A stretch of 64,000 nt of DNA, from NCBI GenBank assembly GCA_013178125.1, contig JABLXJ010000008.1, forward strand, positions 78,305 to 142,304, written 5' to 3'. Positions 33,243 to 48,055 of the stretch are shown here, piece by piece. Both the position numbers and the translations under genes were made by a program. The notes under the pieces are model-generated. The model had not been told where the DNA came from, did no database searches, and saw only the letters and a program-made list of their open reading frames with translations. Source of the stretch: Bacillota bacterium (lineage in GTDB: Bacteria > Bacillota > SHA-98 > Ch115 > JABLXJ01). Numbering within the stretch: position 1 is the stretch's first letter; the number at the start of each line of letters is the position of its first letter.

Positions 33243-33500
33243 TCACGGCGCGACATCATAATAAGCAGGCGGATTCAAGACCGCCCTCCAGAAAACCTTG
33301 AGCCGGTCCCGGTAGAAGTCGTAACCAGAATCAAAGGGGCTGACCTCCGAGATATGCCTCTCACATCGCCTGCACACGAAATGACCCAGGATGGTGATCC
33401 CGCGCACCATCATTCTACCACATATGATGCATTTCCTTCGCTCCAGAATCCTGCCCCTGCGCCCGGTCACGTATCCCACCGCCCAGATAGCATCGTTCAT
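33243..33500 (-). CDS. csfB: Anti-sigma-G factor Gin (CsfB)
   Basis: CIICGRMMVRGITILGHFVCRRCERHISEVSPFDSGYDFYRDRLK aligns with B. subtilis CsfB (CVICDQ...RGIHLYTKFICLDCERKVIS...DPDYAFYVKKLK). The N-terminal extension in the ORF is probably not translated. Confidence 0.75.
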   Translation of the reverse strand: MNDAIWAVGYVTGRRGRILERRKCIICGRMMVRGITILGHFVCRRCERHISEVSPFDSGYDFYRDRLKVFWRAVLNPPAYYDVAP

Positions 33501-33664: not shown

Positions 33665-35608
33665 TCAAGCATTTTCCCCCTCCGATTTCCCCGCTGTTTT
33701 CAGCCTGCGCCACAGGGTGGTCTGGCTGATCCCGAGAAGCGCCGCCGCCCTTCTCTTGCTCCCCCCGCACTCCTTTAGCGCCCTCTCGATAGCCTCCAGC
33801 TCCATCTCGCGGAGGCTTCTACAACCGCCCTCCTCACCCCCCTCACGGCGCCCATGCGACCCGGGGCATTCCTTGCTGGATAACATGGAATTCACGAGGC
33901 CGGGGGGCATACTCCCGTCCCCGGGGTCGGCCAGGGCTCCTATACGCTCCACGAAATTCTCCAGCTCCCGGATATTGCCAGGCCACCTGTAATTCAACAC
34001 GACCTCCATATCCTCAGGATCCAATTCCTTGAGGGGGTGGCCGAGCCGGAGCTCGCACTTTCTCATGAAGTATTCAAGACATGCCCGTATGTCTTCCTTA
34101 CCCCGTTCCCTTAGGGGTGGAAGCATGAGATTGAGGACGTCAAGGCGGTAGTATAAGTCCTTCCGGAAGTTACCTTCCTGAACAAGGGCCTCGAGATCCT
34201 TGTTCGTGGCCGCGATGATCCTTATATCCACAGGTATGACCCTATCATCCCCTAAACGTATGACCTCCTTTTCCTGGATGACCCTGAGGAACCTCGCCTG
34301 CACGCTCAGGGGCATCTCGCTGACCTCATCAAGGAATATGGTCCCCCGGTGAGCCAGCTCAAACAACCCCGCCTTCCCCTGCTTCCGCGCGCCCGTAAAC
34401 GCCCCCTCCACATAGCCGAAGAGCTCGCTCTCCAAGAGGCTTTCAGGCAGGGCCGCGCAATTCACCGCCACAAAAGGGCCATTAGCCCTCGGGCTTGCGT
34501 TGTGGATGGCCTGGGCGAACATCTCCTTGCCCGTGCCCGTTTCACCGCAAATCAGGATGGGGCTATCCATCTGGCTGTATCGCTTCGCCATTTCAACCAG
34601 CTGCGACATAGCACGGCTCGACCCGATGATATCCGAGAAATGAACCCTGGCGACAAGGCCCCGCGTCGCCAGCGCCTTTCGCGCCTTGGCCTCGAGGCCC
34701 TGGATCCGGCCTATATCAAGAAAATTTACCACGGCGCCAACAGGCCGTCCGTCAAGAACGATGGGGATACGATTAGTTATGACCTGGACCCCGCCAATAT
34801 TCCGTATCTTGCCAACCTCGGGCCCTGTCTTGAGAGCTAGGATATCTGTGCCGCGTAACTCCGGCATTACGAAGTCTATGGGTTTGCCAATGACATTGGA
34901 TGCCTTGAGGCGAGTTATCTGCTCAGCCATGGGGTTGAAGACGGTGATTATCCCGTTCTTATCGAGGGCGATGATCCCGTCATAGGCGAAATCCAGGATC
35001 GCGCGGATGTTCTCAGTCCGTTCCCGCTCCCGCTGCTTGACGGGGATGAGGCGCCAGGCCTCGAGAAGGGCGGCGGCGAGCGCCTCCTCCCCAGCCTTTA
35101 TCCTGAGCCCCTGAATGCCATAGGAGGCTGCAAGGGAGGTGACAGCAATGCCCCCGAGGAGAACCTCCACCCCAAGGTCCCGCATCCGTCGAATTGCGTC
35201 ATGAAGGGCCTTGGGCCTGTCCGAATCGAGGACATAGGCGCCCACGAACTTCATGCCCAGGAGAGGGGCCAGCATCGAGGCGCCCTTTACAACATTGGAC
35301 ATGTGTGCGACCCCGACCCTGTCGCTGACCGCCCTCGCGGCATTCAGGGCGCGGGCTATATCATAACCCGTTATCTCCACGTTTACGAGGGGGACATCTG
35401 AAACCTGCCGGGCGCGCCTCAGGCTGTAGCCCCACCTGCTGACCACAACCTCAATCCCTCTCTCACTGCATGTGGCCAAGAGCTTGAGCCGCTCCTCCCC
35501 TACGGCGACCACTATATCTACCCCGACGTCGATGCCCAGGGAATCCTCCAGTTTGCCAACCAGCTGTGCAGTCTCCTCCTCCGGCGCGATAAATAGAATC
35601 TTGCCCAA
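33665..35608 (-). CDS. Sigma-54-dependent transcriptional activator, PrpR-like N-terminal sensing domain + PAS + AAA+ + Fis HTH
   Basis: GETGTGKEMFAQAIH and GAFTGA motifs; ESELFGY; C-terminal HTH AAALLGISQTTLWRRLK. 647 aa. Confidence 0.9.
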   Translation of the reverse strand: MGKILFIAPEEETAQLVGKLEDSLGIDVGVDIVVAVGEERLKLLATCSERGIEVVVSRWGYSLRRARQVSDVPLVNVEITGYDIARALNAARAVSDRVGVAHMSNVVKGASMLAPLLGMKFVGAYVLDSDRPKALHDAIRRMRDLGVEVLLGGIAVTSLAASYGIQGLRIKAGEEALAAALLEAWRLIPVKQRERERTENIRAILDFAYDGIIALDKNGIITVFNPMAEQITRLKASNVIGKPIDFVMPELRGTDILALKTGPEVGKIRNIGGVQVITNRIPIVLDGRPVGAVVNFLDIGRIQGLEAKARKALATRGLVARVHFSDIIGSSRAMSQLVEMAKRYSQMDSPILICGETGTGKEMFAQAIHNASPRANGPFVAVNCAALPESLLESELFGYVEGAFTGARKQGKAGLFELAHRGTIFLDEVSEMPLSVQARFLRVIQEKEVIRLGDDRVIPVDIRIIAATNKDLEALVQEGNFRKDLYYRLDVLNLMLPPLRERGKEDIRACLEYFMRKCELRLGHPLKELDPEDMEVVLNYRWPGNIRELENFVERIGALADPGDGSMPPGLVNSMLSSKECPGSHGRREGGEEGGCRSLREMELEAIERALKECGGSKRRAAALLGISQTTLWRRLKTAGKSEGENA

Positions 35609-36079
35609 TGCCCGGCTCCCTCCTCAATAATTAAGTACCAATGTAAGTAACTGTGTGATTACCAATGAATTTACCAATAGATTACGGATGCGCTTTTCAT
35701 TCTGAAATACGAGAGCCAATACCGACCTCCTGACGAGGCAATATTTGATCCAACGTTTCATTTTGTAAAGACCATGTTTCATTTTTTAATTCGACGTTGC
35801 CGTTTCCTCTCCTGCCGGGCGGCTCTGCTCCGGCCCCGGACCGCGCCTCGAAAATTAATTTATGGCCATATGCCTTGACCCTAAGGCATATGGCCTGTGC
35901 CCACGATGCTTTCCCCTGGTCTCCTGGCATCCATCTTGCTTCATGTGATGGATAAGACATTGAACATGTAAAATGTGTGGAACACCCCAGTAGTCGCCTG
36001 TAATCCTAAGGGCGAGTTTCGAAGATTACCGCTGCTTTTCCAGGACTTACGGTGTTTGCGTGACGGGGCCTTTGAAATT

Positions 36080-36095
36080 TGGCAGGGCCCTCGCG
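36080..36095 (+). promoter_or_regulatory. Candidate sigma-54 (-24/-12) promoter for the amidohydrolase-tct operon
   Basis: TGGCAGGGCCCTCGC has GG (36081-82) and GC (36093-94) at the canonical 12-nt register of TGGCAC-N5-TTGC. It is ~185 nt upstream of the ATG at 36282 and adjacent to the sigma54 activator gene. It is embedded in the inverted repeat AAATTTGGC-N11-GCCAAATTT (36075-36103). Confidence 0.35.
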
Positions 36096-36281
36096 CCAAA
36101 TTTCAACGGAGGCGCGCCGCAAGCGCGCCGTCCCCGGAGCGCAATACCGTAAGTCCTGGAACGTGCTGGTAAACTGGCACAAATTAGGGAACCTGCACTT
36201 AGCATAACTGTAAACATCTCATCTCCACTATCATGGCACATCTCTATTACTGGCATCGACTATGTAAGGAGGTCTTTATCA

Positions 36282-37673
36282 ATGAACGGAAAAGTGCAGC
36301 TGCTGATCACCGGCGGGGATGTTTACACCCCATCGAGGCCAATCAAGGCCGATATCGTAGTGAAAGATGAGAAGATCGTTTCCCTTCAGGCCCCCGGGAC
36401 GTTCCAGGGGGAGGCGGAAAAGATCATCGATGCATCCGGGAAGTCCGTCATCCCGGGCCTGATCGATACCCACGCCCACTTCAGGGAGCCCGGCTTCACC
36501 CACAAGGAGGACTTCGAGACGGGCACACGGGCCGCCGCGGCGGGAGGCGTCACCCTCGCCGTTGACATGCCTAACACCAAGCCCACTACCAATTCGCCCG
36601 AGCGCTTCGAGGAGCACCGCAAGGCCTCCGAGCAGAAGGCAATAGTTGACTTCAACCACTGGCCGGGACCTCCCCATGACCTGGATCAGATCAAGGACCT
36701 GATGGACATGGGCGCAATAGGTATCAAGGTCTTCATGATGAAGGATACCAAGCGGGGTTATCCCCACATGCCCGAGCTGGGCATAACCGACGACGGTCAC
36801 CTCATGGAGATTATGAGGGCATGCCAGAAATACGGCGCGATTGTCGCAATTCACCCTCACAACCAGGAGCTCTGTGAGCATATCGAGAAACGGTATTTCT
36901 GGGAGAAGGGCCTCACGAGCCCTGGAGACTACGCCAAGGCATTGAGATGGGGCGACTCGATAATCTACGACACGGCCTTCGCCCTGCTCCTCCTCCTGGC
37001 GCGGTCAACAGGTGTCAAGCTGCACCTCCTGCACCTCAACACCTATCTCGGCGTCGAGATGGTGAGGCTTGCCACGCAGTATAACGTGAATGTGACGGCT
37101 GAGATCAACCCGCCGCACCTCTTTGTCACATGGAAGGACGTCCAGGAGAAGGGCCCTTATGTGCTGGGGACGTGGACGCCGCCCAAGGACCAGGAGGCCC
37201 TGTGGCGAGCATGCACGGAGGACCTGTTTACCGTCCTGCTTGCAACCGATCACGCGCCTCACGCGAAAGAGGAGAAGGAGATCGGCTGGCAGGATATGTG
37301 GAAGGCGCACGGCGGCGCCCCGTATATCCAGCATTATCTCTCGCTGCTCCTCACGGCGGCGAACGAGGGCAGGATAACAGTCGAGCGGATCGTCAAGCTC
37401 TGCTCGGAGACGCCTGCGAAGGTCTTCGGCTTCTACCCGCGCAAGGGGGTCATCCAGCCCGGCTCTGACGCCGACCTGGTAATCATCGACATGAATAAAA
37501 AGGAGGAAATAACCACAGATAGAATTTATAGTAAGTGCGGCTGGACTCCTTTCGAGGGATGGGAGGTAAAGGGCGTGCCCATCCAGACGATCGTGAGAGG
37601 CAAGGTAGTCATGGAGAACGGGGAGGTGATCGGCGAGCCCGGGCATGGGAAGTTCATTACGCCGCAGAGGTAG
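36282..37673 (+). CDS. Cyclic amidohydrolase (dihydropyrimidinase/allantoinase/dihydroorotase-type)
   Basis: DTHAHFREPG HxH metal motif. Carboxylated-Lys region GIKVFMMKD. 463 aa, which fits the hydantoinase/allantoinase size class. Confidence 0.8.
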   Translation: MNGKVQLLITGGDVYTPSRPIKADIVVKDEKIVSLQAPGTFQGEAEKIIDASGKSVIPGLIDTHAHFREPGFTHKEDFETGTRAAAAGGVTLAVDMPNTKPTTNSPERFEEHRKASEQKAIVDFNHWPGPPHDLDQIKDLMDMGAIGIKVFMMKDTKRGYPHMPELGITDDGHLMEIMRACQKYGAIVAIHPHNQELCEHIEKRYFWEKGLTSPGDYAKALRWGDSIIYDTAFALLLLLARSTGVKLHLLHLNTYLGVEMVRLATQYNVNVTAEINPPHLFVTWKDVQEKGPYVLGTWTPPKDQEALWRACTEDLFTVLLATDHAPHAKEEKEIGWQDMWKAHGGAPYIQHYLSLLLTAANEGRITVERIVKLCSETPAKVFGFYPRKGVIQPGSDADLVIIDMNKKEEITTDRIYSKCGWTPFEGWEVKGVPIQTIVRGKVVMENGEVIGEPGHGKFITPQR

Positions 37674-37782
37674 GCACAATTAAAATTATAGGTAGCAACT
37701 AAAGGTAGACGGGTAGATATCGATAAGTAATAGCCGGGTAATAGTAAACTGCAGGTAAGGAAGCAACTATAATTTACAGGGG

Positions 37783-38799
37783 GTGAGGAGTTTCATGATG
37801 AATAGGGGTTTGAAACGCCTGGCAAGCGGTTTGTTGATGGGGATAATGTTCCTATCCCTGTGCGTGGGGGTGGCCGCAGCCCAGGAGGAGAAGTTTCCGA
37901 CCAAGCCCATCCGCATGATTATAACGCATGATGTCGGCGGCAGCGTCGATATGGCGGCAAGGGGAATAATCCCTTACCTAGAGAAGTACCTCGGGGTGAA
38001 TATACAACCAGAGAATATGGTCGGCGCCGGCGGGCGGCGGGCGATGGAATATATGTTTAATCAGGCTCCCGCCGATGGTTATACAATCGTGGTGTCGGCC
38101 TTCCCATCCAGGCTGCTCGGTGAGCTGACCTATCCCCAGTCGAAATATAAGATGTCGGAGTTCGTCCACCTCGGAGCGTGGGTGGGCGGGGACTATCGAT
38201 CGATAATAGTGGCCAAATCATCGAAATTTAAGACATTTAACGACATCCTGAATGAATCCAAAAAGAGGAAGCTGACGGCCGCCGGTGGAGGGGGCCTCGG
38301 CTCCACGTCGCAGCTCCAGGCCGTCATGTTGAAGGATGTCGTTGGTCTGAATGCTGAGTTTATCCCCTTCGACAGCACGGCGGAGGTTGCCGCCGCAGTG
38401 CTCGGGAAACATGTGGACTTCGGTTTGATGCCCCTTTCGAGCTCCCTGCGGTATGCGAAAACGGGCGATGTGAGGATCGTGGCCGTCCACTCGCGCAAGA
38501 GGATGCCCGAATGTCCTGATGTGCCTACCATGGAGGAGCTGGGGTTCCCAGGCGTGGTAATTCCCTACGGTGTCGGCGCCTGGGCGCCTCCTAAGACCCC
38601 GGCCTCGAAGGCCAAAATCCTCGAGGAGGCGATCGTCAAGGCATCCAATGACCCGCAATTCAAGGCATGGGCTGAGAAGACCGATATGCTCCTCGAACCG
38701 CTTAATGCTGAGGAATTCTACAGGACGACGATGGATGATTATAAGAACATCCAAAAGGTCCTGCCTATGCTGATGAAGGCAGCGGGGACGAGCAAATAG
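37783..38799 (+). CDS. tctC: Tripartite tricarboxylate transporter substrate-binding protein TctC (Bug family)
   Basis: Signal peptide; 338 aa. Operonic with tctB and tctA. Confidence 0.8.
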   Translation: MRSFMMNRGLKRLASGLLMGIMFLSLCVGVAAAQEEKFPTKPIRMIITHDVGGSVDMAARGIIPYLEKYLGVNIQPENMVGAGGRRAMEYMFNQAPADGYTIVVSAFPSRLLGELTYPQSKYKMSEFVHLGAWVGGDYRSIIVAKSSKFKTFNDILNESKKRKLTAAGGGGLGSTSQLQAVMLKDVVGLNAEFIPFDSTAEVAAAVLGKHVDFGLMPLSSSLRYAKTGDVRIVAVHSRKRMPECPDVPTMEELGFPGVVIPYGVGAWAPPKTPASKAKILEEAIVKASNDPQFKAWAEKTDMLLEPLNAEEFYRTTMDDYKNIQKVLPMLMKAAGTSK

Positions 38800-39014
38800 C
38801 ATCAAAAGCATCATACCTGCGAATTGCCGTTCATTAATCGCCGTTCATTGTCCGGCTTCAGTCTAAACAGGGGTAAGCCCGCTGCGACCTCGCTGCGACC
38901 TCAGGGTTGCCAGCGCAGGATGCGCCACCGGGGCCGCAGCGGGCTCCACACACTAAACTACACACCTATAATAGTGGGCTGGAGCTGATGTAAAAGACAC
39001 GAGGGGGCGAAGAT

Positions 39015-39488
39015 ATGTCAAAAAAGGCGACCTATACCTGGGTCGGCATCGCTGAGTGGTTATTTCCCCTTGTCCTGCTGGCATTCTGCCTCCTGCTCTT
39101 CTTTATGGGATTTAGATATCAACCAAGGACGAGGGAACTGCCTCAAATCATCGCAGCTATTACCGCGGCGATGCTGGTGGCACACCTGGCGCTCATACGC
39201 ATGGATCGCAGGGACGCAAAGACGGTGCCGATGCCGCGGGCCAATAAGGCGGCGTTGATTTACTCACTCCTGGCCGTACCTGTGTTTATCCTGATCCTCC
39301 ATTTCCTGGGCTTCATTATCGCTTCTCTGGTCCTGGTAGCGGCCCTCACATATATTCTCGGGATGCGCCGCACCCCGGTGCTTGTCGCTGTGCCAATCGG
39401 CGCCACGCTTTTTCTATATGCGGTCTTTGGGATGCTCCTCGGTGTCCCGCTGCCGCGTGGGCTGATATTCCAGTTACTTTTCCATTAA
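39015..39488 (+). CDS. tctB: Tripartite tricarboxylate transporter small membrane protein TctB
   Basis: 157 aa with 4 TM. Sits between the tctC and tctA homologues. Confidence 0.6.
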   Translation: MSKKATYTWVGIAEWLFPLVLLAFCLLLFFMGFRYQPRTRELPQIIAAITAAMLVAHLALIRMDRRDAKTVPMPRANKAALIYSLLAVPVFILILHFLGFIIASLVLVAALTYILGMRRTPVLVAVPIGATLFLYAVFGMLLGVPLPRGLIFQLLFH

Positions 39489-39623
39489 TACCTGGGCCAG
39501 GATAAGACCGCTACCGCTAAAGCGCGTAGATATAAATAAACGCGATATATGCGGTATAGAGGTCCTTCTCGAATTAAAAACCCCTTTCTGAATCTCTAAA
39601 AACCCCGAAAGGAGTGAGGTCCC

Positions 39624-41153
39624 ATGCAATGGCTTCAGGCCCTCTCCACCCTGGCAAACCCCGCATGCATAGCGTTCATGCTGCTTGGGTGCATAATTGG
39701 CATCATCGGGGGAGCCCTCCCGGGGATTGGTGCCAGCCTGACCATGTCACTACTTATTCCATTTACATTTACGCTGCCCAAAACCATAGGGCTACCGTTC
39801 CTGATCGCGGCATGGTCGGCGGTCCTGTGGGGCGGCTCCATCACCGCCATCCTGCTGAATACCCCGGGGACCGGCGGCAACGTGGCGACGTGCTTCGATG
39901 GCTTCCCCTTGTCGGAGAAGGGTCGAGGCGGGGTCGGCCTCGGGATATCCGCTATGTCATCGATGGTGGGCGGCCTCGTAGGGATCATCGTGTTGATCCT
40001 ATTTGCGCCACTGCTCGCCAGCTTCTCTTTAAGATTCGGGCCTGCGGAGTACTTCCTTCTAGCTATATTCGGTATGAGCATCATAGCCACGACTACAGAA
40101 GGCGCTGCCCTCAAGGGGCTCATAGGCGCCGGGATCGGCCTTCTCATCAGCCTTATAGGCTATGACCTGATCTCCGGCGAGATACGCTACGACTTCGGAA
40201 CCCTCTACTTACAGGATGGCATCCCCTTCCTGGACGTGATAATCGGGCTCTTCGCCGTCTCGCAGGCGTTCGTCTTCGCCGAGGAGCTCGAAGCCACGGT
40301 CGCCAAGGCGGGGAAAGTGGTAGGTAGCGCCTTCGAGGGTATACTCATCCCCTTCAAGTATGTCGTAACGCTGGTGCGGAGCTGCCTCATAGGAGTTATC
40401 TTCGGCTTCGCTCCCGGCGTGGGCACCGCCGCTGCAAACATGGTCGCCTGGACGGAGGCAAAAAGGAGCTCCAGCCACCCGGAAACGTTCGGCTCAGGTG
40501 ACGAGGAAGGATTAGTGGCAGCCGAGACTGCAAACAATGCTGTTCAAGGTGGCGCCCTCATCCCCGCCCTCACCCTCGGCATTCCGGGCAACTCCGATTC
40601 GGCGGTCTTCCTGGTCGCGCTCATGATGTACGGCATAACGCCCGGCAAAGATCTCTTCGGGAACAACCCCGACCTTGTCTATGTGCTCTTTACGGCCTTG
40701 CTGATAGGCCAAATCCTCTTTTTCGCGATAGGAGTGCCGTTTTCTAATCTCTGGGCGAAGGTGACCATAGTCCCAACAAGCATCGTTATGCCGGTTGTGT
40801 TGATAACCTGTTATGTGGGGGCTTTCGCGCTAAGAAACAACATCTGGGACATTCTCACGGTCTCCATATTCGGACTGCTGGGATACATCATGAAGAAGCT
40901 CAAATTCCCTGTGGTCCCGATGATGCTCGCCGTGATCCTCGGGCCCATAGCGGAAAAGAACTTCTACCGGGCCCTCTTGATATCCGGCGGCTCCTTTAAG
41001 ATATTCGTTTCCAGCCTGATATCTCAAGCCCTTATCCTGCTCATTGTTTTCGCGCTCGCCTTTCCATATATTTCAAGCGTTTTAAGAACGCGGCGGCAGA
41101 AAAATAGGGATAAAAACGGGGCATTGGACACACCACGGAGGTGCGAGTCATGA
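39624..41153 (+). CDS. tctA: Tripartite tricarboxylate transporter large permease TctA
   Basis: 509 aa polytopic protein. Conserved GxxxG-rich segments (GIIGGALPGIGASLTMSLLIP). Confidence 0.85.
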   Translation: MQWLQALSTLANPACIAFMLLGCIIGIIGGALPGIGASLTMSLLIPFTFTLPKTIGLPFLIAAWSAVLWGGSITAILLNTPGTGGNVATCFDGFPLSEKGRGGVGLGISAMSSMVGGLVGIIVLILFAPLLASFSLRFGPAEYFLLAIFGMSIIATTTEGAALKGLIGAGIGLLISLIGYDLISGEIRYDFGTLYLQDGIPFLDVIIGLFAVSQAFVFAEELEATVAKAGKVVGSAFEGILIPFKYVVTLVRSCLIGVIFGFAPGVGTAAANMVAWTEAKRSSSHPETFGSGDEEGLVAAETANNAVQGGALIPALTLGIPGNSDSAVFLVALMMYGITPGKDLFGNNPDLVYVLFTALLIGQILFFAIGVPFSNLWAKVTIVPTSIVMPVVLITCYVGAFALRNNIWDILTVSIFGLLGYIMKKLKFPVVPMMLAVILGPIAEKNFYRALLISGGSFKIFVSSLISQALILLIVFALAFPYISSVLRTRRQKNRDKNGALDTPRRCES

Positions 41154-42175
41154 ATATGTCCGTAAAAGCCGGGGGGCTTGAGCTCAAGAATCCCCTAGTC
41201 CTTGCATCAGCAAGCTACAGCGCGAATGCATCGGGGATAGAAAAATATATAAGGCTCGGCTTCTCGGCCGTGATAACAAAGACGGTCACGAGGAAGCCGC
41301 TCGCAGGTGCGCCCCCACCGAGGATATTCTGGTACGACCCGAATGAAAAGCGGATGCTGAGCGGGGTCGAGGCCCTGCGAAACCCGGGCTACGAGAAGGT
41401 CTGCGAGGCTATAGCCAGGTGCAAGCCCCTTGCCGCCCAGGAGGATTGTAAAATCATCGCGAGCCTCAGCGGCCAGTCTGAACAGGAGATGGCCGAAATG
41501 GCAAGAGCCCTCGAGAGCGCGGGAGCCGATGGCATTGAGCTCAACCTCGTTTGCCCGTCCACAGGCCCCCATCTCGGGCCGGATTATGACCGCCTCGGCA
41601 AGTACTGGTCTGAAACGCCTGAGCGGGTCATCTCGGTCATATCTGCCGTGAAATCCGCTGTCAACGCGCCGGTATGGGCGAAGTGCACCCTGGGCAGCAT
41701 CATCAAACCCGAATTCATAAAAGAGGTGGATGCGAAGGCCCCGCCAGATGCGTATGCGTTCATAGGCGGGCGCATGCCCTGCCTCGTGATAGATACCGAT
41801 ACGGGAAAGCCGAAATTCCCGGGGAATACGCTCCTGAGGTTCGAAAAGGGCATACCTGTCATGCCGACGGTCACGGGGCCCGTCAAGCCGAGCACGATAT
41901 TGCATACGGCCTACCTTGCAAAAATCACGAAGACCCCGCTCATATGCTCAGGCGGCTTGGGCAAAGGCCTAGACATCATTGAGGCCCTTATGGTAGGCGC
42001 CTCGGCGGCGTGTATCAGCACAGCCGTCTATAGAAAGGGTGACATTTCGCTCGAGATACTCAGGGAGATACAGGACTTCATGGAGAGGAAGGGGCTTTCC
42101 TCGCTGGACTCTATCAAAGGGATCGCCCTCCAGCACATCCCTGACCCGCCGCTCCTGAAAGTCCCGGGGCTCTGA
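41141..42175 (+). CDS. Dihydroorotate dehydrogenase-family flavoenzyme (DHOD 1A / PreA-like TIM barrel)
   Basis: LKNPLVLASASY, ITKTVT, GIELNLVCPS (equivalent of NxSCPN), CSGGLG. Confidence 0.7.
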   Translation: MRVMNMSVKAGGLELKNPLVLASASYSANASGIEKYIRLGFSAVITKTVTRKPLAGAPPPRIFWYDPNEKRMLSGVEALRNPGYEKVCEAIARCKPLAAQEDCKIIASLSGQSEQEMAEMARALESAGADGIELNLVCPSTGPHLGPDYDRLGKYWSETPERVISVISAVKSAVNAPVWAKCTLGSIIKPEFIKEVDAKAPPDAYAFIGGRMPCLVIDTDTGKPKFPGNTLLRFEKGIPVMPTVTGPVKPSTILHTAYLAKITKTPLICSGGLGKGLDIIEALMVGASAACISTAVYRKGDISLEILREIQDFMERKGLSSLDSIKGIALQHIPDPPLLKVPGL

Positions 42176-42340
42176 CCGAATAACTAATATGACCCAATAT
42201 ATGACTATAATGACATCTACTCTACCGGCACCCGCCCCAGATTGATCAGCCCTGAGTCGGGCTGAATTGCATCATTTGGGGATAAAGTCGGAATAAATTC
42301 AGATCGCTTCTGGAGCTAAAGTATACGGGGAGGCATTCCG

Positions 42341-43051
42341 ATGGACGTCGCAGAGGATATCCAGCAAATAAAGGAGAATCTGGCCCAGGCGGTGCGCGTC
42401 CTGGCCAATGGCGGGATTCTCACCCTCATGGTGGGGCACGTAAGCCAGAGAGTTAAATCCGATGGGAGCATAGTAATCCTGGGACACGCTCACAGGCTTG
42501 GGAAGACGCTCAGCAAGGTCGCGGCCGGCGATATGGTGACTATTGACATGAATGGGAATCTCATAGATGGGCGCCTCGGCCCGCCTGGGGAGAGGTTTAT
42601 TCACACAGCGATATATCGCGCGAGGCCGGACGTAGGAGCCGTGATACATGCCCATCCCCTCGCCTCCTTGCCGTTCGGCATAGCAGGTGTTGAGATCATC
42701 CCAGTGTTTGCCAGGGCTGTGCAGCTCGGGCCGAAGGTGCCGATCTTCGATTACCCGGGCCAGATCGATACGGAAGCCAAGGGCGAGGAGCTTGCGCGCA
42801 ACCTGGGCCCCAACAAGGCTTTGCTCCTCCGTGGACATGGGATCGTGGTCGTGGGCGAAACCCTCGAGGAGGCCTGCGTGAACGCTTTTATGCTCGAGAT
42901 GAACGCTGATATCCAATTCAAGGCGAGCCTGCTGGGCTCAGCCAGGCCCGTGACCCCCGAAGAAGTCTACGGCGAGAATCATCAGAGCCGCCATACGCCT
43001 ACAAGCTCATGGTTTTATTTCGTAGAGCGCTACAACGGCTGCGGCGATTAG
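42341..43051 (+). CDS. Class II aldolase/adducin-domain protein (aldolase or decarboxylase/dehydratase-type)
   Basis: FIHTAIYRARPDVGAVIHAHP metal-binding His motif; 236 aa. Confidence 0.8.
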   Translation: MDVAEDIQQIKENLAQAVRVLANGGILTLMVGHVSQRVKSDGSIVILGHAHRLGKTLSKVAAGDMVTIDMNGNLIDGRLGPPGERFIHTAIYRARPDVGAVIHAHPLASLPFGIAGVEIIPVFARAVQLGPKVPIFDYPGQIDTEAKGEELARNLGPNKALLLRGHGIVVVGETLEEACVNAFMLEMNADIQFKASLLGSARPVTPEEVYGENHQSRHTPTSSWFYFVERYNGCGD

Positions 43052-43413: not shown

Positions 43414-43767
43414 ATGCTACAAAGGGGGTGTTTCTTTATGAATGGCTTTACTGAAGCGCTTGGGATTACAGTGGTAGGAATGGTCACAGTTTTCGCTGGC
43501 CTATTGGTCCTCGCGTTCTGCATAAAGCTCCTCGAGAGGCTCTTCGGCCCCGAAAACGCCCCTCTCGAGCAGGAGCAGGGCATGGCTCAGCTTGAGCCTG
43601 CCGAGGGTGGCCGAGAAGAGGCTCAGGTATATGAGGGTCTGGCCGGGGAGATAATAGCGGCGATTACTGCGAGCCTTATTGCCGCAGGAGTCAACCCGAA
43701 GCGCGTCACCATACGGCCCGCGGACGCGAGCGCAGCGGAGGAGAAAGAGGACCGTGCTATAGCATAG
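43414..43767 (+). CDS. oadG: Na+-translocating decarboxylase gamma subunit (OadG-like)
   Basis: MNGFTEALGITVVGMVTVFAGLLVLAFCIKLL is a typical OadG TM helix. Probable start is the internal Met at 43438. Confidence 0.7.
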   Translation: MLQRGCFFMNGFTEALGITVVGMVTVFAGLLVLAFCIKLLERLFGPENAPLEQEQGMAQLEPAEGGREEAQVYEGLAGEIIAAITASLIAAGVNPKRVTIRPADASAAEEKEDRAIA

Positions 43768-44037
43768 GATGTTCTCTTAAGGATATCCTTTCGAAAACAT
43801 TGTACATGAGTTCACAATTTGAGAACGATAGCTGGACGATAGTCAATAGTGGCCAATGGCTAATTTGAATCGCCAATGGTCAACTTGCTGGTGGTTGAGG
43901 GTTTACAATGGTTACCAAAGTGATAGTCACTGAGCGACAAATAACATATAGCGATTACCAGGGGCACCCGAAGAGGTTATCTATCTAAAGGGGTTACCCC
44001 ATTATATTTTTTATTAGAAAGGCAAGATGGTCGTTTT

Positions 44038-44439
44038 ATGAGAAAATTTAAAGTAGTGGTCGGCGGAAACGAGTATGACGTAGAAGTTGAAGAATACCGC
44101 GAGGAAGAGGCGGCTGCAGAGCCTGTTGCGAAGAAGCCCGTCGCCGTGGCGACACCGGCACCGGCGCCGAAGCCCAAAGCCGTACAGCCCAAGCCCACCC
44201 GCGAGGGGCATGCCCCCAATTCCAAGACGATCACCGCCCCTCTTGGTGGAACCATCCTCAAGGTCAACGTCAAAGAAGGGGACAGGGTTAAGGCGGGGCA
44301 GATCGTTCTGACCCTCGAGGCTCTCAAACTCGAAAACGAGATTGCTGCGCCGGCAGACGGGGTTGTTCGCGAAATCGTCGTGTCGTCCGGAAACACCGTA
44401 GAGATCGGGCAGACGTTGATGGTTATCGAACTTGACTGA
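44038..44439 (+). CDS. Biotin carboxyl carrier protein (stand-alone biotinyl domain)
   Basis: Ala/Pro-rich linker then a biotinyl domain, ...GQIVLTLEALKLENEIAAPADGVV. The ALKL motif takes the place of the canonical AMKM. Confidence 0.8.
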   Translation: MRKFKVVVGGNEYDVEVEEYREEEAAAEPVAKKPVAVATPAPAPKPKAVQPKPTREGHAPNSKTITAPLGGTILKVNVKEGDRVKAGQIVLTLEALKLENEIAAPADGVVREIVVSSGNTVEIGQTLMVIELD

Positions 44440-44596
44440 TGGTTATAAACACTGATGGTTATCAACCGTGAGCAGTGGGAAAACGCGGGAAAAATAATTA
44501 AGGTAGAATTCAGTAGATCGGTCCCCCGATCTATATCCCGATCTATATATAGTAATGGCAATAGCAATAAACGTCCTTAAGGGGGCATAGTTCAAG

Positions 44597-45709
44597 GTGC
44601 TAACTCGAATGTTGGAGTTCATAAGGAGCACGGGTTTCGTCAATATCACCCCTGGCGAGGCCCTGATGATTCTTGTATCATTTGTCCTGCTCTACCTGGC
44701 CATAAAAAAGGGGTACGAGCCGCTGCTCCTGGTCCCGATCGGGTTCGGGGTCATGCTCGCTAACCTCCCGCTCGCCAATTTAATGGAGAAGGGCGGGTTG
44801 CTATACAACCTTTACCAGGGGGTCAAGCTCGGCATATACCCGCCCCTCATCTTCCTGGGGGTCGGGGCGCTCACGGATTTCGGGCCGCTGATTGCAAACC
44901 CGTTTAGCATACTCCTCGGGGCGGCAGCGCAAATTGGCATATTCACCACCTTCCTGGGTGCTATAGGTCTCAATTTCACCCTGAAGGAGGCTGCCTCGAT
45001 CGGCATAATCGGCGGGGCCGATGGGCCGACGGCGATATATCTCACATCCAAGCTGGCGCCCCACTTGCTTGGGCCCATCGCGATAGCAGCCTACTCTTAT
45101 ATGGCTCTCGTCCCAATTATCCAGCCTCCAATAATGAAGGCCCTGACGACCCCGGAAGAGCGCAAGACAATGATGGCACAGCTAAGAACGGTATCTAAGG
45201 CCGAGAGGATCATCTTCCCCATAGTTGTCACCGTCCTTGGAATCTTGATTGTCCCGTCCGCCGGGGCTCTAATAGGTGCGCTCATGCTTGGCAATCTTAT
45301 GCGCGAGAGCGGCGTTGTGGACCGGCTGACCAAGACCGCCCAGAACGAGCTGATAAACATCGTGACGATATTCATTGGCTTGACCGTGGGCGCCACAGCA
45401 AATGCGGCCACATTCCTGACCTTCCGGACCATCAGCATTGTTATCCTAGGCCTCCTGGCCTTCGCCGCAAGCACCGCAGGCGGGGTCATTTTCGGCAAGA
45501 TCATGTATAAGCTAACCGGGGGCAAGGTGAACCCCTTGATAGGCTCGGCGGGCGTCTCGGCCGTTCCAATGGCCGCCAGGGTCTCACAAAAGGTGGGCCA
45601 GGAGGCCAATCCGGAGAACTTCCTGCTGATGCACGCGATGGGGCCAAATGTGGCAGGGGTTATAGGCTCGGCGATCGCAGCCGGCGTCCTGCTTGCCGCC
45701 CTCGGGTAA
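44597..45709 (+). CDS. oadB: Na+-translocating decarboxylase beta subunit (OadB/GcdB/MmdB family)
   Basis: 370 aa polytopic protein; [17 protein letters not shown]; GADGPTAIY. Confidence 0.9.
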
Positions 45710-45765
45710 TATCGGATTTCGGATTAAGGAAGAATTGAATCGAAAGGGGATTGAGAGGGGATATC

Positions 45766-47205
45766 ATGAGCGCTGACGAAGTCAGAAACCATGCACTCAA
45801 AGAAAGCAAGGCCGGCAGCGCCGCTGCGCTGCAAGAGACGCCGGCGCCAAAGAGGCGGATAAAGGTCACCGATACGATCTTCCGGGACGCGCACCAGTCC
45901 CTCCTGGCCACCAGGATGCGCACCGAGGATATGCTCGCAGTGGCCGACGAGATTGATAAAGTGGGGTATTATTCCCTGGAGGTCTGGGGTGGGGCTACCT
46001 TCGACTCCTGCCTCAGGTATCTCGACGAGGACCCTTGGGTCCGCCTCCGTAAGCTGAAGGAACGAATCAAGAACACGCCGCTTCAGATGCTTCTCCGCGG
46101 GCAGAACCTGCTCGGCTACCGCCAGTATCCAGATGATGTGGTGCGGGAATTCATAAAGCTCTCCATCGCTAACGGGATAGACATCATGCGTATATTCGAT
46201 GCGCTCAACGACGTGCGCAACATGCAGGTAGCCATCGAGGCCACCAAGCGTGAAGGAGGGCACGCCCAGGCGTCTGTCGTCTACACTACGAGCCCGGTGC
46301 ACAACCTGGACCTCTATGTGAAGATAGCAAGAGCCCTGAGGGACATGGGCGCTGATTCTATATGTATCAAGGATATGGCCGGGCTCCTCACTCCATATGC
46401 AGCCTATGAGCTCGTGAAGCGCCTCAAGGAGGAGATCGCCCTCCCGGTTCACCTTCACAGCCACTATACCAATGGCCTGGCCGCCATGGCCTACCTCAAG
46501 GGAATCGAGGCGGGCGCCGATGGCATAGATACCGCCCTGTCCGCGCTCGCGCTCGGGAGTTCCCAACCGGCTACGGAAACGATGGTTGCGACCCTGCAGG
46601 GGACGCCTTACGATACAGAGCTGGATCTCAGCCTCATCAGCTCGATAAACTCCTATTTCAAGGGCGCAAAGGAAAAATACGCAAAGGTGGCTGCCCCTGT
46701 AGCCGTTAACCCTGAAGGGCTCATCTGGCAGATACCCGGCGGGATGCTCTCGAATCTCAGGGCGCAGCTGAAGGCGCAGGGCATGCTGGATAAGCTCCCC
46801 GCCGTTCTCGACGAGGTCCCGCGGGTGCGCGAGGAGATGGGCTACCCGCCCCTCGTAACGCCCATGAGCCAGATCGTCGGGACGCAGGCTGTCCTGAACA
46901 TCGCTACGGGGAAGAGGTATGCGATAAAGTCAAAAGAAATCCGCGACTATGTCAAAGGCCTCTACGGGACGCCGCCAGCCCCGATAAATGATGATATCAG
47001 GCGGATGATCATAGGCGACGAGGAAGTCGTCACGTGCCGGCCCGCGGACCTTCTCGAGCCACAGCTCGAAAAGGCAGAGGCTGAGCTGGGGGACTACATG
47101 CAAAGCCAGGAGGACCTACTCTCTTACGTGCTCTTCCCCGAGGTGGCCATGGACTTCTTCAAGAAGCGAGAGCAAGTGCAGGAAGAGGCCCAGGCGGGAG
47201 CGTAA
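45766..47205 (+). CDS. oadA: Oxaloacetate decarboxylase alpha / pyruvate carboxylase subunit B-type carboxyltransferase (no biotinyl domain)
   Basis: ITDTIFRDAHQSLLATRMRTEDML (HMGL-like TIM barrel). ~480 aa without a C-terminal biotin domain. Start at 45766 after the GAGGGG RBS. Confidence 0.85.
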   Translation: MSADEVRNHALKESKAGSAAALQETPAPKRRIKVTDTIFRDAHQSLLATRMRTEDMLAVADEIDKVGYYSLEVWGGATFDSCLRYLDEDPWVRLRKLKERIKNTPLQMLLRGQNLLGYRQYPDDVVREFIKLSIANGIDIMRIFDALNDVRNMQVAIEATKREGGHAQASVVYTTSPVHNLDLYVKIARALRDMGADSICIKDMAGLLTPYAAYELVKRLKEEIALPVHLHSHYTNGLAAMAYLKGIEAGADGIDTALSALALGSSQPATETMVATLQGTPYDTELDLSLISSINSYFKGAKEKYAKVAAPVAVNPEGLIWQIPGGMLSNLRAQLKAQGMLDKLPAVLDEVPRVREEMGYPPLVTPMSQIVGTQAVLNIATGKRYAIKSKEIRDYVKGLYGTPPAPINDDIRRMIIGDEEVVTCRPADLLEPQLEKAEAELGDYMQSQEDLLSYVLFPEVAMDFFKKREQVQEEAQAGA

Positions 47206-47221: not shown

Positions 47222-47490
47222 TGCCAAGATTCTTGGCAGTCTTCCCCGGTCAAAAGTGAAATTGGCAGCTTTCTTGGCAGGCTGCACGTGAAGATGCCAA
47301 GATTCTGGGCAGTTACCCGCTCATCCTGCCAATATTCTTGGCAGTTTGCCCCGGCCAAAGGTGAAAGTGCCAAGAATTTTGGCAGGTCGCGCGTAAAGGT
47401 GCCAAGATTCTTGGCAGTTTTGCCGCGTACAGGGGTTAGCCTGCCAAATTCCTTGGCAAGAGGTGAGTCATCCTGCCAAGTTTCTTTGCA
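47222..47490. repeat. Array of eight imperfect 17-bp palindromes (consensus TGCCAAGATTCTTGGCA), helically phased
   Basis: Copies start at 47222, 47263, 47295, 47327, 47368, 47400, 47442 and 47474. Centre-to-centre spacings are 41,32,32,41,32,42,32 bp, i.e. about 3 or 4 helical turns. Spacers after copies 1 and 4 are similar, giving a ~105-bp higher-order unit. The array lies in the convergent intergenic region between oadA (+) and a DUF355-like gene (-). Confidence 0.85.
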
Positions 47491-47536
47491 GCCCCGACGT
47501 ATCAGTAGCACGTCCGGCGCAGAGCTTCTAGATCTC

Positions 47537-48055
47537 TTAAAGCTTATATCCTATAGTCCTGAGGAGCTTCTTCCGCGCGGCTATATCCTCCGCGCCCTCA
47601 ATCCCTGCGGACACCAGCCCGTCGATGACGCCCAGAATCCCGCGCCCCTGCTTCGTCTCGGCGATGATCACCTCAACAGGATTCGCGGTTGCGCAATAGA
47701 TGCCGCATACCTCGGGCACCTGCTTGATGGCGTTGAGCACGTTGATTGGGTAGGCATTCTCCATGAGGATGATGAAGCTGTGCCCCGCCGCCAGTTTCAA
47801 GGCGTTGTTCCGTGCAAGCTCGACGAGGCGCTCGTCGTTCCCCGCATACCGCACGAGCCGCGGGCCCGAAGATTCGCAAAACGCCACGCCAAACTTGATC
47901 CCCGGGCCCGACGTCGCCATCGCCTCATAGATATCCTCGACGGTCTTTATGAAGTGGGCCTGCCCGAGAATCATATTCATGTCTTCTGGCTTATCGATCT
48001 TGACTACTTTTAGCTCCAACCCTGCTTCCACCATGGCCTCCACCTCGCTATCCAC
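47537..48055 (-). CDS. DUF355/adenosine-specific-kinase-like family protein (tentative)
   Basis: 172 aa soluble protein. From memory it resembles the ~160-aa archaeal/clostridial PF04008-like family, so the family assignment is weak. Confidence 0.35.
   Translation of the reverse strand: MDSEVEAMVEAGLELKVVKIDKPEDMNMILGQAHFIKTVEDIYEAMATSGPGIKFGVAFCESSGPRLVRYAGNDERLVELARNNALKLAAGHSFIILMENAYPINVLNAIKQVPEVCGIYCATANPVEVIIAETKQGRGILGVIDGLVSAGIEGAEDIAARKKLLRTIGYKL

What the first reader, a model, noticed from the sequence alone, without database searches (positions are those of the whole stretch)
33665..43051. Uncharacterised sigma54-controlled catabolic module: cyclic amidohydrolase + TctCBA + DHOD-like flavoenzyme + class II aldolase-like enzyme
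A PrpR-type sigma54 activator is divergently placed from an operon. The operon encodes a hydantoinase/dihydroorotase-class amidohydrolase, a complete tripartite tricarboxylate (TTT) uptake system, a DHOD/PreA-like TIM-barrel flavoenzyme and a class II aldolase/adducin-fold enzyme (this fold also gives decarboxylases and dehydratases). A sodium-pumping oxaloacetate-type decarboxylase follows directly. The enzyme set suggests reductive ring opening of a carboxylated cyclic amide or imide taken up by TctC. Candidates are orotate/dihydroorotate, a hydantoin- or succinimide-carboxylate, ending in a C4 dicarboxylate. That product could feed the downstream Na+-translocating decarboxylase for energy conservation, as orotate fermentation does in Clostridium oroticum. 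I do not recognise this combination as a described pathway.
Basis: partly seen in the sequence, partly recalled or inferred. Interest (0 to 1): 0.65.

Follow-up and report, generated by a model that had tools for sequence, protein, structure and literature searches.

The report
Uncharacterised N-heterocyclic acid breakdown operon
A regulated operon in an uncultured spore-forming anaerobe pairs a dihydroorotase-like ring-opening enzyme with an unusual dihydroorotate-dehydrogenase-like flavoenzyme, an acid importer and a decarboxylase-like protein; the same core recurs in several bacterial phyla, probably degrades an orotate-like ring acid, and matches no described pathway I could find.

Summary
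All genes are at the stated coordinates, and the only exact sigma54 -24/-12 promoter in the window lies between the activator and the operon.

The amidohydrolase (AH) and the DHOD-like flavoenzyme (DHODL) form a conserved core. They co-occur in 16 of 30 related loci from Bacillota, Spirochaetota and Syntrophus-type MAGs, usually with a carboxylate importer and often with the aldolase-fold protein (ALD2).

- **AH** keeps the dihydroorotase metal ligands and its Arg/Asn/His carboxylate triad.
- **DHODL** keeps the catalytic Cys but has lost 3 of the 4 pyrimidine-binding Asn. It has no PyrK/PreT partner and belongs to a rare clade.
- **ALD2** is closest to a pyridine-dicarboxylate decarboxylase.

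Related loci add a xanthine-dehydrogenase-family Mo hydroxylase (XDH) and amidases from three superfamilies. This points to catabolism of an orotate-like carboxylated N-heterocycle: optional hydroxylation or decarboxylation, ring reduction, hydrolytic opening, then deamidation.

The Na+ oxaloacetate decarboxylase (OAD) is not generally conserved with the module. It does recur beside one independently arranged relative.

The substrate is unresolved. Orotate itself is possible but disfavoured. No published description was found. This is a new variant of a known catabolic logic.

The parts
33665..35608 (-). sigma54-dependent activator (PrpR_N sensor, PAS, AAA+ with GAFTGA, Fis-type HTH)
   Evidence: Pfam Sigma54_activat 240.8 bits, PrpR_N 86.4, PAS, HTH_8. 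It is below all NCBIfam equivalog cut-offs; PrdR and PrpR are the best matches. Walker A (GETGTGKE) and GAFTGA are visible in the translation.
35864..35895 (.). perfect 13-bp inverted repeat GGCCATATGCCTT-N6-AAGGCATATGGCC; candidate activator binding site (inferred)
   Evidence: it lies about 30 bp upstream of the -24 element.
35925..35940 (+). sigma54 -24/-12 promoter TGGCATCCATCTTGCT
   Evidence: The only zero-mismatch match to TGGCAY-N5-TTGCW in 64 kb; correct intergenic region and orientation.
36038..36161 (+). long stable hairpin in the ~340-nt leader between promoter and first gene; function unknown
   Evidence: Inverted repeats I1 and I2. RNA fold z = -4.97 against shuffles. No Rfam family matched.
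36282..37673 (+). AH: dihydroorotase-like binuclear-metal cyclic amidohydrolase (ring opening)
   Evidence: Amidohydro_1. TIGR00857 scores 296 bits against a cut-off of 279; all equivalog models fall below cut-off. Best PDB match is the L-hydantoinase 1GKR at 1e-77. The DHOase motifs HxHxREPG, MPN and DHAPH are invariant in 10 orthologues.
37783..38799 (+). TctC solute-binding lipoprotein (signal peptide with LSLC lipobox)
   Evidence: Pfam TctC 108 bits; sequence.
39015..39488 (+). TctB small membrane subunit
   Evidence: Pfam TctB 47 bits.
39624..41153 (+). TctA large membrane subunit
   Evidence: Pfam TctA 440.7 bits.
41141..42175 (+). DHODL: divergent DHOD/DPD-fold FMN enzyme, predicted ring C=C reductase
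   Evidence: DHO_dh 94.9 bits. Best NCBIfam score is 133 bits against a cut-off of 269. AF2 model pLDDT 87; best folds are DPD and DHOD-B, TM 0.62-0.69. Cys138 is invariant, and 3 of the 4 pyrimidine-binding Asn are lost. Only 20 representative clusters reach E<=1e-30 among 1.84 billion.
42341..43051 (+). ALD2: class II aldolase-fold metalloenzyme, predicted decarboxylase
   Evidence: Aldolase_II 121.8 bits. Best PDB match by sequence and by fold is 2Z7B, 3-hydroxy-2-methylpyridine-4,5-dicarboxylate decarboxylase (TM 0.84). H103, H105, H166 and E84 are invariant.
43414..47205 (+). Na+-translocating oxaloacetate decarboxylase genes: OadG-like 43414-43767, BCCP 44038-44439, OadB 44597-45709, OadA 45751-47205. 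Possibly linked sink; membership in the module uncertain.
   Evidence: Pfam OAD_gamma, Biotin_lipoyl, OAD_beta, PYC_OADA. OadB TIGR01109 scores 508 bits against a cut-off of 190. OadA PRK12331 scores 732 bits against a cut-off of 718. Among related loci, OAD recurs only in L029.

Best explanation
This is a sigma54-controlled operon for uptake and reductive-hydrolytic breakdown of an orotate-like carboxylated N-heterocycle. The likely substrate is a six-membered ring with an amide, imide or ureide carbonyl conjugated to a C=C and carrying a ring carboxylate.

Proposed sequence:
1. A carboxylate effector activates the PrpR_N/PAS activator, which fires the -24/-12 promoter (inferred).
2. The lipid-anchored TctC and TctBA import the acid (inferred from family).
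3. ALD2, a metal-dependent relative of a hydroxypyridine-dicarboxylate decarboxylase, removes an extra ring carboxyl (inferred; the weakest step).
4. DHODL, an FMN TIM-barrel enzyme that keeps the DHOD/DPD catalytic cysteine and the carbonyl-polarising Asn, reduces the C=C next to the ring carbonyl. Its electron donor is unknown.
5. AH has a complete dihydroorotase metal site and the dihydroorotase Arg/Asn/His carboxylate clamp. It hydrolyses the saturated ring to a linear N-carbamoyl or amide dicarboxylate.

In other genomes the same AH-DHODL core is fed by a xanthine-dehydrogenase-family Mo hydroxylase. It is finished by an amidase of the isochorismatase, CN-hydrolase or M20 type.

The product probably enters C4 or C5 dicarboxylate metabolism. 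In this genome and one other it may reach oxaloacetate and the adjacent Na+ pump.

Shown here: gene content, motifs, folds, promoter and conservation. All chemistry is inferred.
For: **Gene content and promoter:**

**Conservation**
- AH and DHODL lie in one cluster in 16 of 30 non-redundant related loci. Many of the remaining loci are too short to judge.
- The full AH-DHODL-TctCBA-ALD2 set occurs in a Syntrophus MAG (L002), a Spirochaetia chromosome (L012), a Peptostreptococcaceae MAG (L008), and in L017 and L018.

**AH:** the DHOase triad and metal ligands are invariant. They are absent from L-hydantoinase, allantoinase and D-hydantoinase.

**DHODL**
- It has the DHOD/DPD fold and an invariant Cys138 and Asn135, but GNP->GAP, MLN->MLS(+Glu77) and INT->IGG(R211).
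- It has no PyrK/PreT partner in any locus.

**ALD2:** its nearest solved structure is HMPDdc. A 40% homologue sits in a GMC/ADH/ALDH/XDH cluster.

**Accessory enzymes in relatives**
- XDH in L006, L015, L016, L017, L024, L037 and L039. L017 carries both XDH and ALD2.
- UbiD in L021 and Amidohydro_2 in L018.
- Amidases in L008, L037, L023, L029, L042, L010 and L034.

**One shared core substrate:** AH is 83-85% identical between ALD2-type and XDH-type clusters.

**Precedent for the logic:** the Aspergillus nidulans nicotinate pathway (PMC9304392).
Against: - No enzyme of this cluster or of its close relatives has been assayed, and every relative comes from a MAG or metagenome.
- The role of ALD2 rests on about 25-30% identity to one decarboxylase. 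Its other structural neighbours are O2-dependent iron enzymes.
- No amidase and no Mo hydroxylase is present in this window, so the pathway as encoded here ends at an amide or carbamoyl acid unless other genes act.
- Several deltaproteobacterial loci carry DHODL without AH (L010, L014).
- The electron donor of DHODL is unidentified.
Confidence: 0.55

Rival explanations
1. Genuine orotate fermentation. Orotate is imported, reduced by DHODL to dihydroorotate, and opened by AH to N-carbamoyl-L-aspartate. This is then converted to aspartate and oxaloacetate, which the Na+ pump decarboxylates.
For: - AH passes TIGR00857 and carries the exact DHOase substrate triad.
- DHODL keeps the catalytic Cys.
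- OAD lies directly downstream here and also in L029/L032, which is organised differently.
- The accessory amidases belong to families that include N-carbamoyl amidohydrolases.
Against: - DHODL lost 3 of the 4 Asn that hold the pyrimidine in DHOD and DPD, and gained an invariant Glu in the carboxylate-binding loop.
- Orotate needs neither the Mo hydroxylase nor the ALD2, UbiD or Amidohydro_2 decarboxylases that accompany the core.
- This window encodes no decarbamoylase.
- From my own knowledge, not tested here: the classical orotate fermenter uses a DHOD-B type enzyme.
Confidence: 0.2
2. A nicotinate-fermentation-like route for a hydroxypyridine carboxylate. DHODL makes a tetrahydro-oxo-pyridine carboxylate. 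AH acts like enamidase and releases ammonia directly with a 2-oxo or formyl acid. ALD2 decarboxylates the resulting beta-carbonyl acid.
For: - Mo hydroxylases and aromatic-acid decarboxylases are recurrent neighbours.
- ALD2-family enzymes include beta-keto-acid decarboxylases (OtnC-type model hit).
- Precedent in the E. barkeri and Azorhizobium pathway, as summarised in PMC9304392.
Against: - AH has the dihydroorotase carboxylate clamp, not an enamidase-like profile.
- Amidases from three superfamilies sit beside the core in seven loci. This suggests the ring-opened product still carries an amide or carbamoyl nitrogen.
Confidence: 0.12
3. A carboxylated hydantoin route, for example 5-carboxymethylidene- or 5-carboxymethyl-hydantoin to N-carbamoyl-aspartate. 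AH would act as an L-hydantoinase/carboxymethylhydantoinase, and DHODL would reduce an exocyclic C=C.
For: - The best solved relative of AH overall is the L-selective hydantoinase 1GKR, at 1e-77.
- Decarbamoylase-type neighbours are present, and OAD is adjacent.
Against: - The substrate-binding motifs of AH match DHOase, not 1GKR.
- There is no evidence for a natural source of such substrates.
- XDH and ALD2 remain unexplained.
Confidence: 0.08
4. Biosynthetic pyrC/pyrD paralogues that happen to sit beside a transporter; no catabolic pathway.
For: Automatic annotation calls AH 'dihydroorotase family protein' and relatives of DHODL 'dihydroorotate dehydrogenase'.
Against: - DHODL scores 133 bits against a cut-off of 269 and lacks the pyrimidine-binding Asn and any PyrK partner.
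- The pair travels with importers, catabolic-type regulators (sigma54 activator, GntR/FCD, LacI), hydroxylases and amidases, and never with pyrB, pyrE or pyrF in an operon.
Confidence: 0.03

Closest known systems
Reductive pyrimidine catabolism (PreT/PreA or DPD, dihydropyrimidinase, beta-ureidopropionase)
   Same: A DHOD-fold flavoenzyme with a catalytic Cys reduces the ring C=C. A binuclear-metal cyclic amidohydrolase opens the ring. A CN-hydrolase or M20 amidase finishes the pathway.
   Different: DHODL lacks the PreA ferredoxin domain, the PreT partner and 3 of the 4 uracil-binding Asn. AH has the DHOase carboxylate clamp rather than dihydropyrimidinase motifs. A carboxylate importer, ALD2 and XDH accompany the core.
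Orotate fermentation of Clostridium oroticum / de novo PyrC-PyrD run in reverse
   Same: A dihydroorotase-type amidohydrolase plus a DHOD-type flavoenzyme. The product could reach aspartate and oxaloacetate.
   Different: DHODL is not a PyrD orthologue and has no PyrK. The accessory hydroxylase and decarboxylases are not needed for orotate.
Nicotinate catabolism with ring saturation (Aspergillus nidulans Hxn pathway, PMC9304392; E. barkeri fermentation)
   Same: The logic is Mo hydroxylase, then flavin ene-reductase, then hydrolytic opening of a cyclic imide or amide, then an amidase.
   Different: The enzyme families are entirely different: OYE versus DHOD fold, and PuuE-like imidase or enamidase versus a DHOase-like enzyme. 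The hosts here are anaerobic bacteria with TTT uptake.
3-hydroxy-2-methylpyridine-4,5-dicarboxylate decarboxylase (HMPDdc, PDB 2Z7B) of vitamin B6 degradation
   Same: Best sequence and fold match of ALD2. The His3/Glu metal site is conserved.
   Different: Only about 25-30% identity. The host pathway is aerobic and has no DHOD-like or DHOase-like partners.

Membership tests
Class 1 DHOD (PyrD) / DPD-PreA | FMN-binding TIM-barrel fold of the DHO_dh family | tested here: met
   Pfam DHO_dh 94.9 bits against a cut-off of 27. AF2 model pLDDT 87. Best folds are DPD and DHOD-B, TM 0.62-0.69.
Class 1 DHOD (PyrD) / DPD-PreA | Catalytic Cys in the ELNxSCPN loop | tested here: met
   ELNLVC138P; Cys138 and Asn135 are invariant in 23 sequences. 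The loop carries a 7-residue insertion.
Class 1 DHOD (PyrD) / DPD-PreA | Four Asn that hydrogen-bond the pyrimidine ring | tested here: not met
   Only the ELN Asn is kept. GNP->GAP, MLN->MLS and INT->IGG in the HMMER alignment to DHOD-B, consistently across 12 family members. Which Asn binds which ring atom is from my own knowledge of the DHOD-A/B structures.
Class 1 DHOD (PyrD) / DPD-PreA | Curated HMM cut-off for PyrD or PreA | tested here: not met
   Best score is 133 bits against a cut-off of 269 (PRK07259). PreA scores 90 against a cut-off of 335.
Class 1 DHOD (PyrD) / DPD-PreA | Electron-transfer partner (PyrK, PreT) or a fused Fe-S domain | tested here: not met
   None in the window or in any related locus.
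Type I dihydroorotase (PyrC) | Binuclear metal ligands HxH, carbamylated Lys, His, His, Asp | tested here: met
   H64, H66, K150, H192/H194, H251 and D324 are invariant in 10 orthologues.
Type I dihydroorotase (PyrC) | Substrate carboxylate triad Arg (HxHxR), Asn (MPN), His (DHAPH) | tested here: met
   R68, N98 and H328 are invariant. They align to the same motifs in B. anthracis DHOase 3MPG and are absent from 1GKR, 3HM7 and 1NFG.
Type I dihydroorotase (PyrC) | Curated HMM cut-offs | tested here: inconclusive
   Passes the subfamily_domain model TIGR00857 (296 bits against a cut-off of 279). Fails every equivalog DHOase model; the best is 311 against a cut-off of 482.
Type I dihydroorotase (PyrC) | Activity on L-dihydroorotate / role in pyrimidine synthesis | not testable with these tools
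   The gene context is catabolic: importer, regulators, hydroxylase, amidases.
HMPDdc-like decarboxylases of the class II aldolase/adducin fold | Fold and His3/Glu metal site | tested here: met
   Foldseek top hit is 2Z7B, TM 0.84, rmsd 2.5. E84, H103, H105 and H166 are invariant.
HMPDdc-like decarboxylases of the class II aldolase/adducin fold | Decarboxylase activity on a hydroxylated heteroaromatic dicarboxylate | not testable with these tools
   Only 25-30% identity. All NCBIfam models fall below cut-off.
Tripartite tricarboxylate transporter (TTT) | TctC, TctB and TctA all present and adjacent | tested here: met
   Pfam TctC 108 bits, TctB 47 bits, TctA 441 bits.
sigma54-dependent regulon | Activator with AAA+ GAFTGA domain plus a -24/-12 promoter | tested here: met
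   Sigma54_activat 240.8 bits, and GAFTGA in the sequence. Exact TGGCAT-N5-TTGCT at 35925-35940. rpoN itself is not in the window.
Na+-translocating oxaloacetate decarboxylase | Alpha carboxyltransferase, beta membrane subunit, gamma subunit, biotin carrier | tested here: met
   OadA scores 732 bits against a cut-off of 718. OadB scores 508 against a cut-off of 190. OAD_gamma scores 45.7 against a cut-off of 27, and BCCP Biotin_lipoyl 68.7.

The most novel reading that the evidence does not exclude
The DHODL/AH pair defines a previously unrecognised anaerobic route for 'deaza-orotate'-type pyridone carboxylates, for example citrazinate or decarboxylated hydroxypyridine-dicarboxylates derived from dipicolinate, quinolinate or related acids. 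A new DHOD-fold ene-reductase class and a dihydroorotase recruited as a cyclic imidase would open the ring. In some organisms the resulting oxaloacetate-type acid would be decarboxylated by the adjacent Na+ pump. N-heterocycle fermentation would then be directly energy-conserving.
Probability: 0.15. Interest if true: 0.75.

Novelty: new variant of a known kind. Interest (0 to 1): 0.55.

Why it matters
Anaerobic fates of carboxylated N-heterocycles are poorly mapped at the gene level. These include orotate, pyridine mono- and dicarboxylates such as nicotinate, isonicotinate, quinolinate and dipicolinate, and hydantoin acids.

This module offers a defined, conserved set of candidate genes. It includes a rare DHOD-fold subfamily with an altered substrate pocket, and a dihydroorotase-type enzyme apparently recruited for catabolism. 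It would correct widespread mis-annotation as 'dihydroorotase', 'dihydroorotate dehydrogenase' or 'tRNA-dihydrouridine synthase'.

It would also give enzymologists new ene-reductase and cyclic amidase activities to test. If the oxaloacetate decarboxylase link holds, it would add a new substrate class to sodium-motive decarboxylation energetics.

Tried and rejected
- **Biosynthetic pyrC/pyrD:** rejected on HMM cut-offs, the lost Asn, the missing PyrK and the gene context.
- **ALD2 and XDH as mutually exclusive alternatives:** rejected, because L017 carries both.
- **OAD as unrelated:** I first concluded this from the genome loci. I softened it after L029/L032 showed a second, differently arranged adjacency.
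- **Riboswitch in the long leader:** no Rfam match.
- **XDH large subunit as a guide to substrate:** uninformative. It is equally distant from 4-hydroxybenzoyl-CoA reductase, aldehyde oxidase and XdhA.
- **TctC identity classes as a split between ALD2-type and XDH-type clusters:** no clean partition.
- **Literature:** eight full-text searches found no description of this gene combination. They covered orotate catabolism, hydantoinase/DHOD/aldolase/TTT, enamidase, pyridine dicarboxylates, citrazinate and Mo hydroxylase plus DHOD.
- **Other pyr genes in this genome:** could not be checked, because only 64 kb is available.

Full report
**1. The observation**

- 33665-35608 (-): a 647-aa sigma54 activator with PrpR_N, PAS, AAA+ and HTH_8 domains.
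- 36282-37673 (+): a 463-aa Amidohydro_1 enzyme, called AH here.
- 37783-41153 (+): TctC, TctB and TctA.
- 41141-42175 (+): a 344-aa DHO_dh-fold protein, called DHODL here.
- 42341-43051 (+): a 236-aa Aldolase_II-fold protein, called ALD2 here.
- 43414-47205 (+), after a 362-bp gap: OadG-like, a separate biotin carrier, OadB and OadA.

OadA and OadB pass NCBI's cut-offs for the Na+ oxaloacetate decarboxylase.

The source is a Bacillota MAG; identical proteins are named 'Firmicutes bacterium HPY71'. The window also carries the sporulation gene gin. The rest of the window holds sugar transporters, kinases and housekeeping genes. It has no pyr genes and no amidase or Mo hydroxylase.

**2. Regulation**

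The only exact match to the sigma54 consensus TGGCAY-N5-TTGCW in 64 kb is TGGCATCCATCTTGCT at 35925-35940. It lies on the + strand, between the divergent activator gene and AH.

A perfect 13-bp inverted repeat (35864-35895) and three GTTTCATTTTKTAA copies lie just upstream. They are candidate activator or bending-protein sites.

The promoter is about 340 nt from the AH start codon. This leader contains a very stable hairpin at 36038-36161, with z = -4.97 against shuffles. It matches no Rfam family.

No terminator-like site follows ALD2. A TATAAT box lies about 45 nt before oadG. Whether the OAD genes are co-transcribed with the operon is therefore open.

**3. Is the cluster conserved?**

DHODL is the most distinctive protein.
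- A word-indexed search found about 70 clusters at 48% identity or more. Identity then drops sharply to 33% and to 25-29%, where ordinary DHOD-B sits.
- An exhaustive HMMER scan of 1.84 billion representatives found only 20 with E<=1e-30. The clade is rare.

Scans of genome and metagenome collections, plus exact-protein look-ups, gave 30 non-redundant related loci. I mapped them by tblastn with the window's proteins.
- **AH and DHODL:** in the same cluster in 16 loci. Most of the others are contigs too short to tell.
- **Full set AH-DHODL-TctC(B)A-ALD2:** recurs in a Syntrophus MAG (L002), a closed Spirochaetia chromosome (L012), a Peptostreptococcaceae MAG (L008), and in L017 and L018.
- **Regulator:** varies. 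It is the sigma54 activator here, an orthologous GntR/FCD protein in eight loci, LacI in L008 and L021, and PAS-LuxR in L002.

This is the pattern of a mobile catabolic module.

**4. Accessory genes in relatives**

Seven loci add a three-subunit xanthine-dehydrogenase-family Mo hydroxylase next to the core: L006, L015, L016, L017, L024, L037 and L039. Two more distant loci (L041, L044) do the same.

L017 has both the hydroxylase and ALD2. AH is 83-85% identical between ALD2-type and hydroxylase-type clusters, and the two types intermix in trees. The AH/DHODL substrate is therefore very probably the same in both. The hydroxylase and ALD2 would then be peripheral enzymes.

Other neighbours:
- a UbiD decarboxylase (L021);
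- an Amidohydro_2 protein (L018);
- isochorismatase-family amidases, weakly BiuH/RutB-like (L008, L037, and L023 with AH);
- CN-hydrolases (L029, L042);
- M20 amidohydrolases (L010, L034).

In L010 a PuuE-like deacetylase-fold protein sits where AH would be.

A 53%-identical AH homologue in L022 pairs with two F420-type LLM oxidoreductases and an XDH set. This is the same logic with a different reductase.

**5. The enzymes**

*AH.* It is most similar overall to the L-selective hydantoinase 1GKR, at 1e-77. Its substrate-binding motifs, however, are those of type I dihydroorotase: HxHxR68EPG, MPN98 and D324HAPH328. These are identical to the B. anthracis DHOase 3MPG. They are absent from 1GKR, allantoinase 3HM7 and D-hydantoinase 1NFG. 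These residues and all binuclear-metal ligands are invariant in 10 orthologues. AH passes TIGR00857 but no equivalog model. From my own knowledge of DHOase structures, this Arg/Asn/His triad clamps the carboxylate of dihydroorotate. I therefore infer that the AH substrate is a saturated ring with a carboxylate in the equivalent position.

*DHODL.* It has the DHOD/DPD barrel, with pLDDT 87 and TM 0.62-0.69 to DPD and DHOD-B. It keeps Lys47, Asn135 and the catalytic Cys138. It has replaced three of the four Asn that hold the pyrimidine in DHOD and DPD. It has also gained an invariant Glu77 in the loop that binds the orotate carboxylate, a 7-residue insertion in the active-site loop, and the invariant residues FWYD, GGR211 and His255. 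It scores far below all PyrD and PreA cut-offs. It never has a PyrK or PreT partner. It is thus a DHOD-fold enzyme with the chemistry retained and the substrate pocket rebuilt.

*ALD2.* Its best match by sequence and by fold is 3-hydroxy-2-methylpyridine-4,5-dicarboxylate decarboxylase, TM 0.84. The His3/Glu metal site is invariant. Its other structural neighbours are O2-dependent iron enzymes, which are unlikely in these anaerobes.

**6. Most likely mechanism**

Taken together, the module imports a carboxylated N-heterocycle. It optionally hydroxylates the ring (XDH, in other genomes) or decarboxylates it (ALD2, UbiD, Amidohydro_2). DHODL reduces the C=C conjugated to a ring carbonyl, and AH opens the saturated ring hydrolytically. 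Where an amidase is present, it removes the remaining amide or carbamoyl group.

This is the logic of reductive pyrimidine degradation. It is also the logic of the Aspergillus nicotinate pathway: Mo hydroxylase, flavin ene-reductase, cyclic imidase, amidase (PMC9304392). Here it is built from different protein families.

The substrate should resemble orotate in the placement of its carboxylate and carbonyl, as AH indicates. It should differ in the ureide part of the ring, as DHODL indicates. 2,6-Dihydroxyisonicotinate (citrazinate, that is 1-deaza-orotate) and related 4-carboxy-2-pyridones fit this geometry. That is chemical inference, not a result.

**7. The oxaloacetate decarboxylase**

None of the longer genome loci has OAD next to the module. 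I therefore first treated it as a neighbour by chance.

Two overlapping metagenome contigs, L032 and L029, are 96% identical over 1151 bp. Together they give this arrangement: AH, TAXI-TRAP, DHODL, tandem CN-hydrolase, DUF401, YheO regulator, OadG-BCCP-OadB-OadA, GntR/FCD. The organisation differs from the window's, and so does the GC content (49% against 55%).

Two adjacencies among roughly 15 loci long enough to judge is more than expected for a single-copy operon. It is still thin evidence. It keeps alive the idea that the end product reaches oxaloacetate, for example via N-carbamoyl-aspartate and aspartate.

**8. Comparison with the known, and novelty**

The cluster is not a member of the PyrC/PyrD biosynthetic pair. 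It is not PreTA-type pyrimidine reduction, nor any described nicotinate, picolinate or dipicolinate cluster. Eight literature searches found no description.

It works like known reductive ring-opening pathways. I therefore rate it a new variant of a known kind. It has a new DHOD-fold subfamily and an unassigned substrate.

**9. Limits**

All relatives are from uncultured organisms. No activity data exist. The electron donor of DHODL, the role of ALD2 and the substrate are all inferred. The rest of this genome could not be inspected for canonical pyr genes, amidases or hydroxylases.

Noticed in passing
window 47222-47490: Eight copies of a 17-bp palindrome TGCCAA-N5-TTGGCA, spaced alternately about 32 and 41 bp. 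They lie between the oadA stop and a convergent adenosine-kinase-like gene. The pattern (up to 2 mismatches) has 13 matches in the window against 2.5 expected by chance; these eight copies have 0-2 mismatches each. ORF 47288-48013, which has no Pfam hit, probably just reads through the array. Function unknown: repeated operator, REP-like element or terminator array.
   Followed up: partly
window 36038-36161: Very stable ~120-nt hairpin inside the ~340-nt leader between the sigma54 promoter and the AH start codon (z = -4.97). No Rfam family matches. It could be an attenuator, a processing site or a palindromic insertion.
   Followed up: partly
window 35694-35895: Perfect 13-bp inverted repeat GGCCATATGCCTT-N6-AAGGCATATGGCC, and three GTTTCATTTTKTAA direct repeats, upstream of the -24/-12 promoter. 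These are candidate activator or IHF sites.
   Followed up: no
L029 1-9921 with L032 1-4283: A differently organised version of the module: AH, TAXI-TRAP, DHODL, tandem two-domain CN-hydrolase, DUF401 membrane protein, YheO-type regulator. It is directly followed by a Na+ oxaloacetate decarboxylase operon and a GntR/FCD regulator.
   Followed up: partly
L015 11973-14743: Next to an XDH-type version of the module sit a non-pyrrolysine MttB-family methyltransferase and a SAM-type methyltransferase. This hints that a quaternary N-methylated heterocycle such as trigonelline might be demethylated upstream. Pure speculation.
   Followed up: no
L022 10001-18248: A 53%-identical AH homologue is clustered with two F420-type LLM oxidoreductases, an alpha/beta hydrolase and an XDH set. 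This suggests an aerobic or actinobacterial-style analogue in which an F420 reductase replaces DHODL.
   Followed up: no
L010 10001-15494: Deltaproteobacterial loci carry DHODL without AH. Instead it sits beside gamma-glutamyltransferase, an M20 amidohydrolase and a PuuE-like deacetylase-fold protein, which is a possible alternative ring hydrolase.
   Followed up: no
window 33243-33500 and 50351-50977: A Gin (anti-sigma-G) sporulation gene lies just downstream of the activator gene, marking the host as an endospore former. An AbiEii-family toxin gene lies further on.
   Followed up: no
window 37783-38799: TctC begins with a lipoprotein-type signal peptide (…FLSLC). This fits a membrane-anchored binding protein in a monoderm host. 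The L008 homologue also has a lipobox.
   Followed up: no
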